From the sequence record PZ445498.1: 64,000 nucleotides of DNA. One strand, 5' to 3'. Under the pieces are notes generated by a model. It was not told the DNA's origin. It saw only the letters and a program-made list of their open reading frames with translations, and made no database searches. Positions 30,459 to 44,765 of this stretch are shown piece by piece; the stretch's first letter is position 1, and each line of letters opens with the position of its first letter. Origin of the DNA: a phage. The translations under genes and the position numbers were made by a program.

Positions 30459-30952
30459 AATTTTATTCTAAGTCTAGGAATTTCAGGCTCCTCTTGATGG
30501 ACTTGGTAAATAACAGGGCTATTATTTACCAGAATATAGCTTATATAAGCTGGAACATAGGATAGTACGAATGGATATGGAACTTTGGCCACATAACATT
30601 GATAATTTCCATTATAAATTCTTGCAGAATGCAGAACTTTAGACGTGATAACATCATAGAACGTAGTTTTCTTCCAATTAATAAGATTTCCATCAGAATC
30701 TATGAACTGGCTACGCTTTGACCCAACTAATTGGGACAACATTGATATTCTACCACGAATAGGATAGAGCTTATAAGGTAATTCTTTCCGCTTCTCGAAT
30801 AGGTCTAACCTACGTTGAGAGAATGTGCCAGGCAACTTCCTGTTATCTAGCACATATTTATTATATCTTGTTGTAATTACGGAATAATCACCTTCCTGCT
30901 CAATTGATACAAACGCCCGTAAAGCATATACGGGCAATTTGAAATCAAGCAC
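30455..30952 (-). CDS. hypothetical protein
   Basis: 165-aa ORF between polymerase and helicase genes. Confidence 0.4.
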   Translation of the reverse strand: MLDFKLPVYALRAFVSIEQEGDYSVITTRYNKYVLDNRKLPGTFSQRRLDLFEKRKELPYKLYPIRGRISMLSQLVGSKRSQFIDSDGNLINWKKTTFYDVITSKVLHSARIYNGNYQCYVAKVPYPFVLSYVPAYISYILVNNSPVIYQVHQEEPEIPRLRIKL

Positions 30953-33512
30953 CGAGAATCCTTTTCACGTTATCCAGATCTTTACATACAGCAATAAACT
31001 TATCATCCTTGTACTTGCTGTGGTCTGGATGCTCTTTATCCATTGCAGCTAACTTCTTATACTCGAAATCTGCATCGAGTAATACACCCTTAACATAACG
31101 AGTATATTCATCATCATCAATACAAGCGATTGATGGGTGCTGTTTCTTCATCTTACCACAAGAGTAGTCGCGAGAACCACCTTTCTCAGAATCAGAATCA
31201 ATACCGATTGGGCAGCCAGGGATACTAATACCACGATCCTTCTGGATGTTACGAATCAGAATCTCGTTATACTGATCGATCAGATCTTCACGTACAATGG
31301 CAACCACGGAGTCGTGAACCAACATGACGATCTTCATCTCTTTTCCTAGACCCAGTGACAGGATTTCTTCATCAGCATCAATAGCACCTAACAACAGGCT
31401 ATCAGAAGATGCAGACTGAATGATTGCGTTAAATCCAGAACGGATTTCTTCACCCTGAACACCACGATCTTCGGAATGGATGTTGTGCAGACGACGCTTA
31501 CGACCAAAGTGACTATAGATGAATCCAAAGTTCTTGATCTGATCGTGGCACTTATCAATCCAACGCTTAAGCTGAGGGAACTGACCGAAGTAAGTTTCGA
31601 TATAGTCCTTAGCATCTGCAACGGTACATTCAACAAACGGTTCGCCTGTCTTAGCAGCCTGTTCCAGAAGAGCTTCGTTAACAGAATGAGCTACTTTAGC
31701 TGGGCCAGAACCATACAGAATACCGAAGGTAATTGCCTTAGCAGCCTGACGCAGAGCTGGGAACAACTTCTTAACATCACGCGGTTCACAGGTCAGTTTA
31801 AATACCATGTGTGCAATGTTTGAGTGGAAGTCAGGGTATTTATCTGGCTCATTCTTCATGTTGATAAATACTTGTTGCATATTTCTGTCACCAGACAGAA
31901 CAGCAGCGTAATAAACTTCCGCAGTTGTCAAGTCCCATGCGATTACACGATATCCCGGGGGAGCTACTACACAACCCTTGATAATAGATTCATCACGTGG
32001 TAGCTGTTGCAGGTTCAGCTTACCAGAAGAACTCAGACGACCAGAAGTAGTCATATGTTCATGGAAACCAGTACGAATGCAACCATCTGCATCAATGCTC
32101 AGAAGAATCTTCTCAACATAAGTAGAGATCAGCTTAGTCAGCTTACGAATCTCTAGCAGAGTCTTAGCAATTGGATGCTGAGTAGCCAGTTCGTTCAGAG
32201 CTTCTGCGTTTGTAGAATCTGCACCTGTATCCGTCAGTTTACCAGTTGGAGTCAAACCAACATAATCAAACAGAAGAACACGGAGTTGCTTAACAGAGTT
32301 AGGGTTAAATGCTTCGTTCTGGTCTTTTTCTAGCTGAACGACTTCTGGATAAGTATACAGTTTCTCACGAGCCTTGTTCAGATTGTGAGTTAGCTGATAC
32401 TGAGCTTCTTTCAAGCGATCAACAGAAATCGGTACACCACGATCTTCCACACGTTGCAAGAATACACAACCAGGCATCAGAACGTCATAGTATAGACTGC
32501 AAAGCTTTTCATTCTTCTCAATTTTCGGTAAGAAGAAGTTATGCAGACGCAGAGTAGCATCGGTATCTTTTGCAGCATAAGGCCACATAATATCAAATGG
32601 AATCAGATCATAGCTGAAATCCTCTTTTTTGATCTTATGTGCCTTGCAATAATCATCCTTGAACTTATCCAGTTCAAAGTCATAATCGCCCATGTCAGTA
32701 TACTTCATAGCCAGAGATTTCAAGCCGTGAGTACCACGACGTTCATCAAGAACATAGTGTTGCAACATGGTATCATGAAGTCTACGCTCTTTATGTGCTT
32801 TCTCGAAGGAAAGTCCTAGATGATAGGAGTAAAAGTGCATATCGAACTTCAAGTTATGAAAAACGATCTGATGATTCTTGCTATCCAGAATTTTCTGGAG
32901 ATAATGTACAGCTACTTCGGTGATGCTATCAGAGTCAATATAAACACCCTGATACTCTTGGTGAGACATAGAAACACCAAGAAGATAACCATCACGAGCA
33001 TACAGAGCTGAGGTTTCGGAGTCGAATGCGATAGGTCCGATAACCATATTATACACCATCTTGATGTATTCTTCAGCTTCATCTGGATCAGTAATAGGGC
33101 GATAATCACCAGCTTTTGCAATCTTCTCACGACCATTAATAATGTCATGAATACTTTCTACAGTTGCATCGAAAACTGGTTTCATTTCAGGTTTAAAGTG
33201 TAACTGAGCTGGACTAATACTTGCAATCCAATTGGCATAGCCACCATGCTCTACACGTTTACCAGTATAATCACCGATACCTTTCTTACCTGCGAAATAC
33301 AGGAAAGGTTCAGCACCGACTAGCACAACAAAATCGTAATCATTCGGATCAAACGGGTTATCTGGAGTTCCGATTGTAATATGCTTTTTCAGCAAACGAC
33401 CAGATAACTTCTCGTTACACATATGGAATACATCAACTTCCTCCCCATAAAGCTGGAAGTGTTTATCATAACGAGTGTTATTTAGAGCTTTATCAACTAC
33501 TGCAATTTTCAA
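30945..33512 (-). CDS. DNA polymerase, family A, with 3'-5' exonuclease domain
   Basis: 855 aa; Pol A motif B (KAITFGILYGSG) and exonuclease-domain acidic motifs; apparent TTG start codon preceded by AGGAG Shine-Dalgarno. Confidence 0.9.
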   Translation of the reverse strand: MKIAVVDKALNNTRYDKHFQLYGEEVDVFHMCNEKLSGRLLKKHITIGTPDNPFDPNDYDFVVLVGAEPFLYFAGKKGIGDYTGKRVEHGGYANWIASISPAQLHFKPEMKPVFDATVESIHDIINGREKIAKAGDYRPITDPDEAEEYIKMVYNMVIGPIAFDSETSALYARDGYLLGVSMSHQEYQGVYIDSDSITEVAVHYLQKILDSKNHQIVFHNLKFDMHFYSYHLGLSFEKAHKERRLHDTMLQHYVLDERRGTHGLKSLAMKYTDMGDYDFELDKFKDDYCKAHKIKKEDFSYDLIPFDIMWPYAAKDTDATLRLHNFFLPKIEKNEKLCSLYYDVLMPGCVFLQRVEDRGVPISVDRLKEAQYQLTHNLNKAREKLYTYPEVVQLEKDQNEAFNPNSVKQLRVLLFDYVGLTPTGKLTDTGADSTNAEALNELATQHPIAKTLLEIRKLTKLISTYVEKILLSIDADGCIRTGFHEHMTTSGRLSSSGKLNLQQLPRDESIIKGCVVAPPGYRVIAWDLTTAEVYYAAVLSGDRNMQQVFINMKNEPDKYPDFHSNIAHMVFKLTCEPRDVKKLFPALRQAAKAITFGILYGSGPAKVAHSVNEALLEQAAKTGEPFVECTVADAKDYIETYFGQFPQLKRWIDKCHDQIKNFGFIYSHFGRKRRLHNIHSEDRGVQGEEIRSGFNAIIQSASSDSLLLGAIDADEEILSLGLGKEMKIVMLVHDSVVAIVREDLIDQYNEILIRNIQKDRGISIPGCPIGIDSDSEKGGSRDYSCGKMKKQHPSIACIDDDEYTRYVKGVLLDADFEYKKLAAMDKEHPDHSKYKDDKFIAVCKDLDNVKRILGA

Positions 33513-33573
33513 ATTTAGTCTCCTTTTGGTAAGTAAGTATAACTTCAGTGTTTCTTCTCTAACTTACCAATAT

Positions 33574-33603
33574 ATTATACCAAATCTTTGAGCGATTCGG
33601 CAA
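33574..33603 (-). promoter_or_regulatory. candidate promoter for DNA polymerase gene
   Basis: Reverse complement TTGCCG-N18-TATAAT; followed by a 9-bp inverted repeat TTGGTAAGT / ACTTACCAA in the leader. Confidence 0.4.
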
Positions 33604-34465
33604 CTAAAATTTCAATACGTTGAGCCAACATATCGATCTCTTCTTTATTTAAGTCACCTGGGTCTTTGCCTTCTGGAAGAAGGAAGTTACCAACTACAGG
33701 TGTTAAACGCGTTTTTGTACGAATTAGCTTCGCTAGTGCTTGTGCGGCTTTATTACCAGAGGCATCATTATCTAATAGGATAACTACTACTCTTACTCCA
33801 GCAATAATGTAAGGACTGAACTTATCGGCAATGTTATCAGATGTAAACTGATGTGTACCAAAGCAGCAAGAAGCATAATCCACACCGTTATCTTCTAGAT
33901 TTAACATATCAAAGATACCTTCAACTAGAACAAGAACTGGTGTATTATATCGTACAGGAAAAATCGGTGGTGAAACTTGTTTTGGTTTTACTAAGTATTT
34001 AGGAGGGGCAGAACTGTTTATAGAACGTCCCAGGAATAGGATATTGCGTCCAACAGCATCTGTTATTGGGAATACAATTCTGCCTTCCCAGTCTGCTTGA
34101 TGTTGGAAAGCAAAATATTTCTTCAAGGTCTTAGAACTGATACCTCGGAAATCACCTTCGAAAAGGTAAGCAGATTCAGGAATTGCAAGATTCGTAGATC
34201 CATTCCTAATCTCTGAAATCTTTTTACGTACTTGTGACAATCTTGGGGACTGTCTGTACTGAGTCTCATTAAAATAATGGTAAATGCTCGGTATTCCTCT
34301 ACCGAAGCCACAGCTCAAGCAATGCATAATACCTGATTCAGGATCAATACGCAAGCTTGGGTGTTTATCATCATGATCTGGATTGAGACAACAGATGAGG
34401 ATGTCCCCACCTGTGTCTTTGTATTCAATGCCTTTCAGATCAAGTAGTTCTGTTATTCTACTCAT
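33575..34465 (-). CDS. DNA primase (zinc-binding + TOPRIM)
   Basis: 296 aa; N-terminal zinc-finger C-x(n)-H...C-x2-C (CCLNPDHDDKHPSLRIDPESGIMHCLSC) and TOPRIM-like acidic motifs. Confidence 0.8.
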   Translation of the reverse strand: MSRITELLDLKGIEYKDTGGDILICCLNPDHDDKHPSLRIDPESGIMHCLSCGFGRGIPSIYHYFNETQYRQSPRLSQVRKKISEIRNGSTNLAIPESAYLFEGDFRGISSKTLKKYFAFQHQADWEGRIVFPITDAVGRNILFLGRSINSSAPPKYLVKPKQVSPPIFPVRYNTPVLVLVEGIFDMLNLEDNGVDYASCCFGTHQFTSDNIADKFSPYIIAGVRVVVILLDNDASGNKAAQALAKLIRTKTRLTPVVGNFLLPEGKDPGDLNKEEIDMLAQRIEILVAESLKDLV

Positions 34466-35934
34466 ATATCGCTGGCCTGTTCACCTGTTGAATTTTCAGC
34501 TTTGTCTTTCTTAGCACGTTTAGGTTGAGCTGGTTTATCCTTTTCAATAGGAATAACGAACTCAGCTTCCATTTGCGCAATATCTTCCATTGCTAGGTTG
34601 GTAGTGTTATCCATTCGCAGAGTTTCCCAGTTCATCTTAGGCATAAACTTCACACTATCAGAGGAACGAGTCTTAACGAAGTCAAACATAATAGCACCTT
34701 GACCATTATCAGCTTTTGCAGCATTAAGATTAGCAGCCATATCTGCGGAATCAAGAATCCCTTTAGACATACGCGTTCTACCATCTTGGTCAATCTGATA
34801 AGGAGCAACACCAGCCACGTTATGTTTCTGGCAGATAGATTTGAAAGACGAACTAACAACCATCTGTTCTTTCCAGTCATACATGTCAATGGTCTTTGAA
34901 TCTGGAAGTCTTGTTTGGTTAATATAGTCTAGAAGAGCTACAGTAACCTTATCACCATACTTAGCAACTAGTTTATTTAATTCTACGTCAACCGTCGTAA
35001 TAGACAGTTCAGGATCGTAAACGATGATCATAGGAGTGTGAAGCTCATAGCCTTCAAGGAGTTTACTTTCCATATCATAGAAGTCACTCATTTTAGCCAT
35101 AGTGTATTGCTTAACGAAGTTATCGAAAAGCTCTTCACCACCATTAAACATCCTAGCCCTAGTTCTGGCTAATCTCAACAGAGCAGCACCTTCAAGAGTG
35201 TTGTTACGCATTGCTAATGCAGATACTCCAGCTAACATAGCCAGATTACGTCTAAACACTTCGTGCTCTTTCATCTCAATTGAGAAATATGGAGCAATGT
35301 CTCCATTCAAATATTGCTGAACCTGTATGTTTGAGCAGATAATGGATTTACCAGTACCACGCCAACCACCAAGCAGTAACGTTTCTGTGCGAGCTAAACC
35401 AATTTGAGCGTCGAACTCATTACAAATACCAAGAGCGATCAAGTTCAGTTTGGTATCTTCTTCTCTCTGGAAAATACGCATTGTGTCTGCGTTGAATACC
35501 TTTCCAGTATTCGTTACTTTCTCTTCTAATTTTAAGTGAAGGGAGGCAACTCGGTTGAGAATTTCTCCCTGATCCAGCATTGTTAAATCTTGAAGCACGT
35601 CTGTTTCTAGAAGTTTCAGGAATAGATCCTGTGTATATTCGGCTTCTAGGACTTCAAGCGCCTGTTCCATGCTCACTTCTGGAATTTGAGTGTTAGCTAA
35701 GACGACAAGAGCTTGAGAAAGGCGGGCGTTCCTATTGGCCTCAAGCATCAGTGCGTCAATGGACGGCATTGCGTTATATTTCTTATAATAATTCTGGACG
35801 GCTTGGTAAATTGAGGAGAAAGCGTCATTAAAATGATCTTTATGCAGTTTTGAGAATGTTTCCAATGCTATTTGCTTCTGTTCAGAAGCGAGAAGCATCT
35901 TCAACACTACAGCTTGCACGTTAAACAAGGTCAT
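34462..35934 (-). CDS. replicative DNA helicase (DnaB-like)
   Basis: Walker A GGWRGTGKS in C-terminal RecA-like domain; start uncertain (35934 preferred; upstream in-frame ATG at 35985 lies inside a terminator hairpin). Confidence 0.7.
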   Translation of the reverse strand: MTLFNVQAVVLKMLLASEQKQIALETFSKLHKDHFNDAFSSIYQAVQNYYKKYNAMPSIDALMLEANRNARLSQALVVLANTQIPEVSMEQALEVLEAEYTQDLFLKLLETDVLQDLTMLDQGEILNRVASLHLKLEEKVTNTGKVFNADTMRIFQREEDTKLNLIALGICNEFDAQIGLARTETLLLGGWRGTGKSIICSNIQVQQYLNGDIAPYFSIEMKEHEVFRRNLAMLAGVSALAMRNNTLEGAALLRLARTRARMFNGGEELFDNFVKQYTMAKMSDFYDMESKLLEGYELHTPMIIVYDPELSITTVDVELNKLVAKYGDKVTVALLDYINQTRLPDSKTIDMYDWKEQMVVSSSFKSICQKHNVAGVAPYQIDQDGRTRMSKGILDSADMAANLNAAKADNGQGAIMFDFVKTRSSDSVKFMPKMNWETLRMDNTTNLAMEDIAQMEAEFVIPIEKDKPAQPKRAKKDKAENSTGEQASDI

Positions 35935-35957
35935 TCTCCTTTGCACGCTTTCGTGCC

Positions 35958-35990
35958 TTCTAAATGCAAAAAGGGGAAGGAGCATAGCCC
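35958..35990 (-). terminator. intrinsic terminator after D5-like gene
   Basis: On the minus strand AAGGGGAGGG...CCTTCCCCTT hairpin followed by TTTTT. Confidence 0.55.
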
Positions 35991-36016
35991 CCTCCCCTTA
36001 GGTTTAATTTACCAGA

Positions 36017-44736: not shown

Positions 44737-44765
44737 ATTATATCAAGATTTTGAGCATCCTGCAA
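44737..44765 (-). promoter_or_regulatory. early promoter about 490 nt upstream of the origin-binding-like gene
   Basis: Reverse complement TTGCAG-N17-TATAAT followed by ATTTATATTGAATTGAGAGA leader. Confidence 0.55.

What the first reader, a model, noticed from the sequence alone, without database searches (positions are those of the whole stretch)
33513..33603. DNA polymerase gene: apparent TTG start and a long inverted repeat in its leader
The 855-aa polymerase ORF begins at a TTG codon (33512-33510) seven nt downstream of AGGAG; the next in-frame Met is 30 codons in. The leader between the candidate promoter (33574-33603) and the Shine-Dalgarno contains a 9-bp inverted repeat TTGGTAAGT ... 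ACTTACCAA with a 27-nt loop. A rare start codon plus a structured leader suggests translational down-regulation or autoregulation of polymerase synthesis.
Basis: partly seen in the sequence, partly recalled or inferred. Interest (0 to 1): 0.35.

Follow-up and report, generated by a model that had tools for sequence, protein, structure and literature searches.

The report
T5-type polymerase gene: TTG start, leader hairpin
This is the DNA polymerase gene of a T5-like phage, with the TTG start codon and private promoter already annotated for phage T5; the inverted repeat in front of it is a real, conserved RNA stem-loop, but it leaves the ribosome-binding site free and does not look like a translational switch.

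Summary
The window is a T5-like phage (Demerecviridae), about 99% identical to some Salmonella phages and 91.5% to T5.

The TTG start is genuine:
- All 27 T5-like contigs examined have TTG.
- 13 of 14 variable sites in codons 1-31 fall at third positions.
- The N-terminus aligns from residue 1 with ATG-starting homologues in other genera.
- The T5 reference record annotates the same 855-aa TTG start and a promoter just upstream. An early promoter named Ppol has been seen by primer extension in T5 infection.

The 9-bp/27-nt-loop repeat is unremarkable by folding energy alone (z = -1.24). Its leader is nevertheless far more conserved than synonymous sites, and the arm pairing is kept with compensatory and G·U changes in Klebsiella and Proteus relatives.

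The stem spans the predicted transcription start. It is therefore complete only in RNA read through from the primase gene, and it ends one base before the Shine-Dalgarno sequence, which stays mostly unpaired. Vibrio relatives carry a true terminator hairpin at the same place.

Verdict: a known start codon and promoter, plus a modestly new boundary stem-loop. Autoregulation is untested and has no support here.

The parts
33598..33603 (-). -35 hexamer TTGCCG of the polymerase promoter, lying inside the primase coding sequence
   Evidence: A TTGC(T/A/C)N hexamer sits at the same 17-18 nt spacing in T5, Klebsiella, Proteus, Pectobacterium and Vibrio relatives.
33574..33582 (-). Extended -10 element TGgTATAAT. 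The primase stop codon TAA (33577-33575) lies inside it.
   Evidence: It falls within the 'promoter' feature of T5 AY543070 (70987-71061). It is followed by ATATT, the discriminator consensus reported for T5 early promoters (PMC7472727).
33567..33567 (-). Predicted transcription start (+1), the second G of TTGG, seventh base after the -10
   Evidence: This is an inference. The position fits the usual -10 to +1 distance. The T5 promoter feature also spans exactly -55..+20 if this G is +1. It has not been mapped in this phage.
33562..33570 (-). 5' arm of the stem, TTGGTAAGT, covering -3 to +6 relative to the predicted start
33535..33561 (-). 27-nt loop (TAGAGAAGAAACACTGAAGTTATACTT) with weak inner helices. 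Its sequence is conserved across genera.
   Evidence: An inner C-G pair becomes U-A in the Providencia and Proteus phages.
33526..33534 (-). 3' arm of the stem, ACTTACCAA, ending directly 5' of the SD
33520..33525 (-). Shine-Dalgarno AAGGAG, 7 nt before the start codon and not part of the stem
33510..33512 (-). TTG start codon of the DNA polymerase gene
   Evidence: 27 of 27 T5-like contigs have TTG. The T5 reference CDS starts at the same codon.
30945..33512 (-). DNA polymerase gene, 855 aa, family A with a 3'-5' exonuclease domain
   Evidence: Pfam DNA_pol_A scores 4.7e-65 and DNA_pol_A_exo1 1.1e-37. The first 200 aa are 94-95% identical to many T5-group phages. Residues 1-148 match phrog_17, DNA polymerase.
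33420..33422 (-). First internal in-frame ATG (codon 31). One T5 record uses it as the start, but it is not the real start.
   Evidence: AY587007 starts there. Codons 1-30 are under protein-level selection.
33575..34465 (-). Primase gene immediately upstream. Its last codons carry the polymerase promoter.
30914..30936 (-). Terminator-like hairpin just past the polymerase stop codon
   Evidence: (8 pairs, 5 of them G-C, then TTTGTATC).

Best explanation
This is the T5-type DNA polymerase gene with its own early sigma-70 promoter (Ppol in T5) and a genuine, lineage-fixed TTG start codon.

The TTG sits behind a well-spaced AAGGAG. It most likely sets polymerase translation at a constitutively reduced level from a transcript made by a strong T5-type promoter (inferred).

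The inverted repeat is a selected RNA stem-loop on the sense strand, but its 5' arm straddles the transcription start. It therefore forms completely only in polycistronic RNA that reads through from the primase gene. In promoter-initiated RNA it is truncated and weak. In either RNA the Shine-Dalgarno sequence and start codon lie outside the stem.

The most likely role is a transcript-boundary element between primase and polymerase. It would be the counterpart of the intrinsic terminator that sits at the same place in Vibrio relatives, but without a U-tract. Possible effects are capping the primase cistron or keeping the polymerase ribosome-binding site in open RNA. It is not a switch that hides the ribosome-binding site.

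Shown: the start codon, the promoter homology, conservation and covariation of the stem, and its position relative to the SD. Inferred: the exact +1, the effect of TTG on yield, and what the stem does.
For: Start codon:
- 27 of 27 T5-like IMG/VR contigs have TTG. 13 of 14 variable sites in codons 1-31 are third positions, and the encoded peptide is nearly invariant.
- The N-terminus aligns from residue 1 with ATG-starting homologues (MKIAVVDK...) in Sugarlandvirus, Hongcheonvirus, Novosibvirus and Vibrio phages.
- T5 AY543070 annotates the same 855-aa CDS. The exonuclease mutations D164A/E166A used in PMC8284885 match the invariant D164/E166 of the 855-aa numbering.

Promoter:
- The -35, spacer and TG-TATAAT are conserved across the family although the -35 lies in coding sequence.
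- It is annotated in T5, and Ppol was detected by primer extension.

Stem-loop:
- Leader identity to the Klebsiella, Providencia and Proteus phages is 85%, 78% and 69%, while fourfold-degenerate sites match only 29-45%.
- The 63-nt leader is at least 95% identical in 438 of 439 T5-group records. The surrounding 401 nt reach that level in only 210 of 441.
- Cognate arm duplexes are -12.7 (T5-like), -13.1 (Klebsiella) and -10.5 kcal/mol (Proteus, different sequence). The non-cognate T5 x Proteus duplex is only -3.6.
- RNAalifold recovers the stem. 93% of cells pair, against 26-50% when partners are slid, and 0 of 500 shuffles reach the observed covariation.
- Both departures from a perfect palindrome in the Klebsiella phage arms, and the L025 variant, are G·U pairs on the sense strand.

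Geometry:
- Stem pair probability is about 1.0 in read-through RNA and 0.04 from +1. The SD is 0.56-0.79 unpaired.
- Two Vibrio phage lineages have unrelated 13-bp hairpins plus a T-run starting 2-3 nt after the same -10.
Against: - The stem is not thermodynamically distinctive on its own (z = -1.24; z about -0.2 from +1).
- Independent lineages are few. The Proteus row supplies most of the double changes in an automatic alignment, so the shuffle statistics overstate the support (caveats).
- The hairpin is degraded in Providencia phages (-5.8 kcal/mol) and absent in Pectobacterium phages, so it is dispensable in some relatives.
- The loop and the 3' arm are conserved as primary sequence beyond what pairing needs. 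This hints at another reader, protein or RNA, that was not identified.
- In T5-likes there is no U-tract, so terminator function does not transfer directly from the Vibrio phages.
- The +1 is inferred, not mapped, and read-through from primase has not been demonstrated.
- No experiment links TTG to polymerase level.
Confidence: 0.55

Rival explanations
1. The hairpin together with TTG forms a translational operator. The structured leader represses initiation, possibly with the polymerase binding its own leader, as T4 gp43 does.
For: - The hairpin lies directly 5' of the SD of a DNA polymerase gene, a layout that resembles the T4 gene 43 operator (from general knowledge).
- Loop and 3'-arm sequence are conserved beyond pairing needs, which a protein-binding site would explain.
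- The start codon is weak.
Against: - The SD and start codon are outside the stem and mostly unpaired.
- The stem is truncated to 6 bp, with probability 0.04, in RNA from the gene's own promoter.
- Hairpin and TTG do not co-occur across genera.
- The 27-nt loop is unlike the compact T4 operator.
- No evidence was found that T5 polymerase binds RNA or is autoregulated.
Confidence: 0.1
2. The stem is a 5'-terminal stabilising hairpin of the promoter-initiated polymerase mRNA. It would protect the mRNA from 5'-end-dependent RNase E decay, as the ompA leader hairpin does.
For: The predicted +1 falls inside the 5' arm, so the RNA would begin G(G)UAAGU, paired with ACUUAC(C) and with no 5' overhang.
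Against: - Complementarity continues 3-5 nt upstream of +1 in the T5-like, Klebsiella and Proteus lineages. Selection on a 5'-terminal hairpin would not maintain that.
- The truncated stem is weak: -4.9 kcal/mol with z about -0.2, and pair probability 0.04 in longer context.
- In the Proteus phage only about 4 bp would remain.
Confidence: 0.15
3. The complementarity has no function of its own. The 5' arm is constrained as the discriminator and initially transcribed region of a T5 early promoter. The rest of the leader is conserved for other reasons, and the pairing is incidental.
For: - The 5' arm overlaps the ATATT discriminator. The sequence GTAAGTTAGAGAAG resembles the ATAAATTGAGAGA stretch downstream of other T5-type promoters in the window.
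- Folding energy is not significant.
- The hairpin has been lost in Pectobacterium phages.
Against: - The Proteus phage has different arm sequences that still pair (-10.5 against -3.6 non-cognate).
- The Klebsiella phage has matched one-base insertions in both arms, giving an extra G·U pair, and changes that are wobble-only on the sense strand.
- Vibrio lineages have unrelated hairpins at the same offset from the -10.
Confidence: 0.15
4. The inverted repeat acts in DNA, as a two-half-site operator across the promoter start for a phage regulator of early transcription.
For: - The repeat spans -3 to +42 of a promoter whose transcripts appear and then disappear during infection.
- Half-sites that covary are also what a dimeric binder would produce.
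Against: - The asymmetries are G·U-type on the sense strand only, which fits RNA pairing and not a DNA palindrome.
- The half-sites are 36 bp apart centre to centre.
- The motif occurs nowhere else in 64 kb that contains many early promoters.
Confidence: 0.05

Closest known systems
Phage T5 DNA polymerase gene (pol, D7-D9) as annotated in the reference genome AY543070, with its upstream promoter (Ppol)
   Same: - The gene is the same: 855 aa, TTG start, SD at the same spacing.
- The promoter is homologous.
- The stem-loop itself (arms and loop) is identical to T5. The whole 61-nt leader from the -10 to the start codon differs from T5 at only 2 positions, both 3' of the stem.
   Different: - The window is a different phage, 91.5% identical to T5 over this region and about 99% to several Salmonella phages.
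- The stem-loop is not annotated in any record inspected.
T4/RB69 gene 43 translational operator, where the DNA polymerase represses its own mRNA (recalled from the literature, not tested here)
   Same: A hairpin lies immediately 5' of the Shine-Dalgarno sequence of a phage DNA polymerase gene.
   Different: - The polymerase here is family A, not family B.
- The stem is 9 bp with a 27-nt loop, not a short stem with a small loop.
- The stem straddles the transcription start.
- There is no evidence of RNA binding or autoregulation.
Intrinsic terminators at the primase-polymerase junction of Vibrio Demerecviridae (pVp-1 group, phi 3 group)
   Same: The position is the same. The hairpin starts 2-3 nt after the conserved TG-TATAAT that follows the primase gene, on the same strand (against 3 nt in the window).
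   Different: - The Vibrio hairpins have 13-bp stems, 4-8 nt loops and a T-run.
- The window's stem has 9 bp (3 of them G-C), a 27-nt loop and no T-run. It is followed at once by the SD.
5'-terminal stabilising stem-loops such as the ompA leader hairpin (general knowledge)
   Same: The predicted 5' end of the promoter-initiated RNA lies within a stem.
   Different: Pairing extends upstream of +1, and the remaining stem is weak.

Membership tests
T5-type family A DNA polymerase gene | DNA_pol_A polymerase domain plus a 3'-5' exonuclease domain | tested here: met
   Pfam PF00476 scores 4.7e-65 (residues 368-760). PF01612 scores 1.1e-37 (residues 137-331). The Klenow fragment is the best solved-structure match.
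T5-type family A DNA polymerase gene | The T5-specific N-terminal extension is present and starts at the TTG-encoded residue | tested here: met
   The first 200 aa are 94-95% identical to many T5-group phages. Alignment with other genera runs from residue 1. phrog_17 matches residues 1-148. The T5 CDS starts at the same TTG.
T5 early sigma-70 promoter (Ppol) | -35 TTGCTA-like hexamer, 17-18 nt spacer, TATAAT, ATATT discriminator, A/T-rich -43 region | tested here: met
   The window has TTGCCG, an 18-nt spacer, TGgTATAAT and then ATATT, with GAAATTTTAG upstream. The consensus comes from PMC3326045 and PMC7472727.
T5 early sigma-70 promoter (Ppol) | Initiates transcription in infected cells | not testable with these tools
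   Primer extension detected a Ppol product in T5 infection (PMC7472727). That Ppol is this promoter is inferred from its name and from the T5 annotation.
Intrinsic (Rho-independent) terminator | G+C-rich stem, short loop, and a U-tract directly after the stem | tested here: not met
   The stem has 3 G-C pairs out of 9, the loop is 27 nt, and the tail is AAAAGGAG. The terminator scan does not list it.
RBS-sequestering translational repressor hairpin | SD and/or start codon base-paired within the structure | tested here: not met
   The stem ends at 33526 and the SD is 33525-33520. P(unpaired) of the SD is 0.56-0.79.
T4 gp43-type autoregulatory operator | Specific binding of the polymerase to its own leader RNA, with derepression in polymerase mutants | not testable with these tools
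   No data were found. Literature searches returned nothing on T5 polymerase autoregulation.
5'-terminal stabilising stem-loop | A stable stem beginning within a few nucleotides of the mRNA 5' end | tested here: inconclusive
   The predicted +1 lies inside the arm, but the remaining 6-7 bp fold weakly (-4.9 kcal/mol with z about -0.2; pair probability 0.04). The +1 has not been mapped.
Any curated RNA family (Rfam 15) | Covariance-model match at or near the gathering score | tested here: not met
   Only three chance-level matches (12-17 bits, against gathering scores of 47-86).

The most novel reading that the evidence does not exclude
Across Demerecviridae the primase gene runs into the polymerase promoter. 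A stem-loop is therefore placed just after the -10 so that its 5' arm spans the transcription start.

RNA arriving from upstream contains the whole stem and is terminated (Vibrio phages, which have a U-tract) or capped or insulated (T5-likes, which have none). RNA initiated at the promoter lacks the base of the stem and escapes.

This would be a promoter-embedded terminator or insulator that distinguishes transcripts by their origin.
Probability: 0.2. Interest if true: 0.5.

Novelty: new member of a known kind. Interest (0 to 1): 0.25.

Why it matters
The practical value is for annotation. GenBank holds three different start calls for T5 polymerase:
- an out-of-frame ATG caused by a one-base sequencing error (829 aa),
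- the internal ATG at codon 31 (825 aa),
- the TTG (855 aa).

The comparative evidence here settles on TTG for the whole T5 group.

Biologically, a fixed weak start codon on the replicative polymerase is a small example of expression tuning. Providencia phages echo it with a second TTG three codons upstream.

The stem-loop would matter more if the transcript-origin-dependent terminator or insulator idea holds. That would be a compact design principle for densely packed phage genomes and a usable part for synthetic biology. At present it is only a hypothesis.

Tried and rejected
- Rfam scan of 33300-33800 at a permissive E-value gave only chance hits.
- The solved-structure search found no T5 polymerase entry, so no construct N-terminus could be checked.
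- The primary papers I recall were not in the library. These are Chatterjee et al. 1991, Gene 97:13, which I recall as the cloning paper that addressed the start of the T5 polymerase gene, and Andraos et al. 2004, JBC, on deletion of the N-terminal 30 residues. They are cited from memory only.
- Several literature searches were too broad and returned nothing relevant.
- The supplement of PMC7472727 held as text does not contain the promoter alignment, so the Ppol +1 could not be read.
- Searching the window for further copies of either arm or leader motif found none beyond chance. A general operator was therefore rejected.
- A leader peptide (uORF) was considered. The only in-frame candidate is a CTG without an SD, and the frame is closed in the Klebsiella phage (read from the sequences). 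It was rejected.
- The MAFFT alignment of leaders misplaces part of the Klebsiella and Proteus arms. A cognate versus non-cognate duplex test was therefore added.
- The IMG/VR pattern scan for ATG or GTG variants of the start found only the 27 contigs already seen, all with TTG.

Full report
**What the window is.** The 401 nt around the finding match 441 phage records. The closest are Salmonella T5-like phages at about 99% identity; T5 itself is 91.5% identical. The ORF at 30945..33512 on the minus strand (855 aa) is a family A DNA polymerase with a 3'-5' exonuclease domain. The gene upstream (33575..34465, minus strand) is the primase.

**Checking the observation.**
- TTG at 33512-33510.
- AAGGAG at 33525-33520, with a 7-nt spacer.
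- The first internal Met at codon 31.
- Arms TTGGTAAGT (33570-33562) and ACTTACCAA (33534-33526), exactly complementary, with a 27-nt loop.
- -35 TTGCCG, an 18-nt spacer and TGgTATAAT at 33603-33574.

An in-frame TAA lies 17 codons upstream of the TTG, with no ATG, GTG or TTG in between.

As a bare statistic the repeat is ordinary. About 12 perfect 9-bp repeats with loops of 3-40 nt are expected per 64 kb, and 48 are seen. The local fold of -10.7 kcal/mol has z = -1.24.

**The start codon.**
- All 27 T5-like contigs in IMG/VR that carry this junction have TTG.
- Across them, codons 1-31 have 14 variable sites, 13 at third positions, and an almost invariant peptide. These codons are therefore translated.
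- The N-terminus aligns from residue 1 with homologues in Sugarlandvirus, Hongcheonvirus, Novosibvirus and Vibrio phages. Those begin with ATG at the equivalent codon (MKIAVVDK, MQIAIVDK, MKIALVDK, MKVAIIDK).
- A phage polymerase family profile matches from residue 1.
- The T5 reference genome AY543070 annotates the same 855-aa CDS. Published exonuclease mutants D164A/E166A (PMC8284885) match the invariant D164/E166 in this numbering.

Other records disagree, for understandable reasons. The 1989 entry M24354 has one extra A in an A-run, which brought an out-of-frame ATG into frame and gave 829 aa. AY587007 uses the ATG at codon 31.

A crude SD-guided gene call finds 63 ATG, 6 GTG and 3 TTG starts among 72 ORFs of at least 80 codons. 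Only the polymerase TTG has an SD, so the codon really is rare in this phage.

Providencia phages PR1 and PSTCR5 also start at a TTG. It lies three codons upstream, and the codon homologous to the T5 TTG is CTA. From memory, the cloning paper of Chatterjee et al. (Gene 1991) addressed the start of the T5 polymerase gene. I could not retrieve it.

**The promoter.** The -35 hexamer, the spacing and the TG-TATAAT are kept in every Demerecviridae lineage inspected. This holds even though the -35 lies in the last primase codons and the primase stop falls at different places around the -10.

AY543070 carries a 'promoter' feature at 70987-71061. That span equals -55..+20 if +1 is the second G of TTGG, which corresponds to window G33567. 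Klimuk et al. (PMC7472727) detected an early primer-extension product they call Ppol. They also note that T5 early promoters share an ATATT discriminator, and this promoter has one. Other T5-type promoters in the window show the same overall layout.

Conservation:
- Against the Klebsiella, Providencia and Proteus phages the leader is 85%, 78% and 69% identical. Fourfold-degenerate sites in the flanking genes match only 29-45%.
- Compared with the Klebsiella phage, the leader ranks at the 90th percentile of 61-nt windows, most of which are coding.
- Across 439 T5-group records the 63-nt leader is at least 95% identical in all but one. The surrounding 401 nt reach that level in fewer than half.

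Pairing:
- Cognate arm duplexes are -12.7 (T5-like), -13.1 (Klebsiella) and -10.5 kcal/mol (Proteus). The Proteus arms are TTGGAT/ATCCAA. The non-cognate T5 x Proteus duplex is only -3.6.
- The Klebsiella phage has one extra base in each arm, forming an added G·U pair. Its other difference, and the variant in contig L025, are U·G pairs on the sense strand. That points to RNA rather than a DNA palindrome.
- RNAalifold returns the stem. Pair counting gives 93% of cells paired, against 26-50% with partners slid, and 0 of 500 shuffles reach the observed covariation.
- Lineages are few, and the Proteus row drives most of the double changes, so these statistics need caution.
- The stem is weak in Providencia phages and absent in Pectobacterium phages.

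**Geometry and consequences.** The 5' arm covers -3 to +6 of the predicted start.
- RNA made from the polymerase promoter keeps only 6-7 bp of the stem. These fold at -4.9 kcal/mol with z about -0.2 and are predicted to pair with probability 0.04 in a 128-nt context.
- RNA reading through from primase forms the stem with probability about 1.0.
- In both RNAs the SD is mostly unpaired (0.56 and 0.79), because the stem ends one base before it.
- Complementarity that continues upstream of +1 in three lineages argues that the read-through RNA is the molecule under selection.
- The nearest strong terminator upstream is at 35999-35971, before the helicase gene. No promoter-like site as strong as this one lies between it and the polymerase promoter, and a terminator-like hairpin follows the polymerase stop codon. 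The helicase-primase RNA would therefore run into this junction.

**Relatives with a terminator at the same place.** In two Vibrio phage lineages with unrelated hairpin sequences, a 13-bp stem followed by a T-run begins 2-3 nt after the same TG-TATAAT. The T5-like stem begins 3 nt after the -10 but has no T-run and a long loop, so it fails the terminator definition.

My reading is that a boundary hairpin belongs to this junction throughout the family. Because the primase gene overlaps the promoter, the hairpin can only sit after the -10. In T5-likes it has lost, or never had, terminator character. What it does there is inferred, not shown. Candidates are capping the primase cistron against 3' decay and isolating the polymerase ribosome-binding site from upstream RNA.

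The TTG half is reasonable. A weak initiation codon behind a good SD on a transcript from a strong promoter type should hold polymerase synthesis down, and the codon is fixed in the T5 group. The hairpin half is not supported as stated:
- The ribosome-binding site is not occluded.
- The gene's own transcript barely contains the stem.
- Hairpin and TTG occur independently in relatives.

Autoregulation in the manner of T4 gp43 remains possible only in the sense that it was not tested. The conserved loop sequence is the one feature a binding protein would explain.

**Novelty and score.** The start codon and promoter are already in the T5 reference annotation. The stem-loop is not annotated in any record I inspected. 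Its cross-genus conservation, and its shared position with the Vibrio phage terminators, appear to be new but modest observations. Interest is 0.25. The most novel reading not excluded is a promoter-embedded, transcript-origin-dependent terminator or insulator, at a probability of about 0.2.

Noticed in passing
window 35920-36000 (minus strand); L093 100-160: The helicase (D6) start looks misannotated in T5. AY543070 starts D6 at an ATG that sits in the loop of the strong terminator AAGGGGAGGGGGCTATGCTCCTTCCCCTT (35999-35971). Downstream, AGGAG is followed by an in-frame ATG after 1 nt (35934) and an in-frame TTG after 7 nt (35928). D6 may therefore be a second TTG-start replication gene.
   Followed up: partly
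L003 (phage Bf23 OR083247) 1676-2130; also hits H20, H21, H26, H35 and H37: Some T5-group phages carry an insertion of about 390 bp between primase and polymerase, encoding a 109-aa hypothetical protein. The -10 is present on both sides of the insert. The copy next to polymerase has a better -35 (TTGCTA, 17-nt spacer) and keeps the whole stem-loop.
   Followed up: partly
L040 1120-1215 (Providencia phage PR1); L090, L091: The Providencia phage polymerase genes are annotated with a TTG start three codons upstream of the position homologous to the T5 TTG, where they have CTA. The GG of the 5' arm is TT in these phages, which weakens the stem, while the 3' half of the leader (TTATACTTACTTACC) is identical to T5.
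   Followed up: partly
L046 1093-1165; L045 1078-1152: In Vibrio Demerecviridae a consensus-like promoter (TTGCAA or TTGCTA, 17-nt spacer, TG-TATAAT) is followed within 2-3 nt by a 13-bp terminator hairpin and a T-run. The predicted start therefore lies inside the terminator stem. Variants among L046-L050 change the stem through wobble pairs.
   Followed up: partly
window 44742-44660 (minus strand): Another T5-type promoter (TG-TATAAT at 44742) is followed, about 25 nt after the -10, by an A/U-rich 10-bp hairpin (ATTAGTAAAA...TTTTGCTAAT) and then TTTTCTTGTTT. It may be a promoter-proximal attenuator. It has too few G-C pairs for the terminator scan to list it.
   Followed up: no
L001 (M24354) nt 121-170 compared with L093: The original 1989 T5 polymerase entry has one extra A in the run CTCAAAAA(A)GC. 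This explains its 829-aa product that starts at an out-of-frame ATG preceded by GAGGAAG.
   Followed up: yes
window 33578-33584 and 33565-33570 (minus strand): TTGGTA occurs twice, 7 nt apart (gaTTTGGTAtaatataTTGGTAagt). Read-through RNA therefore has two alternative partners for the 3' arm TACCAA(A) (repeat I6). The upstream copy is lost in the Bf23-type promoter.
   Followed up: no
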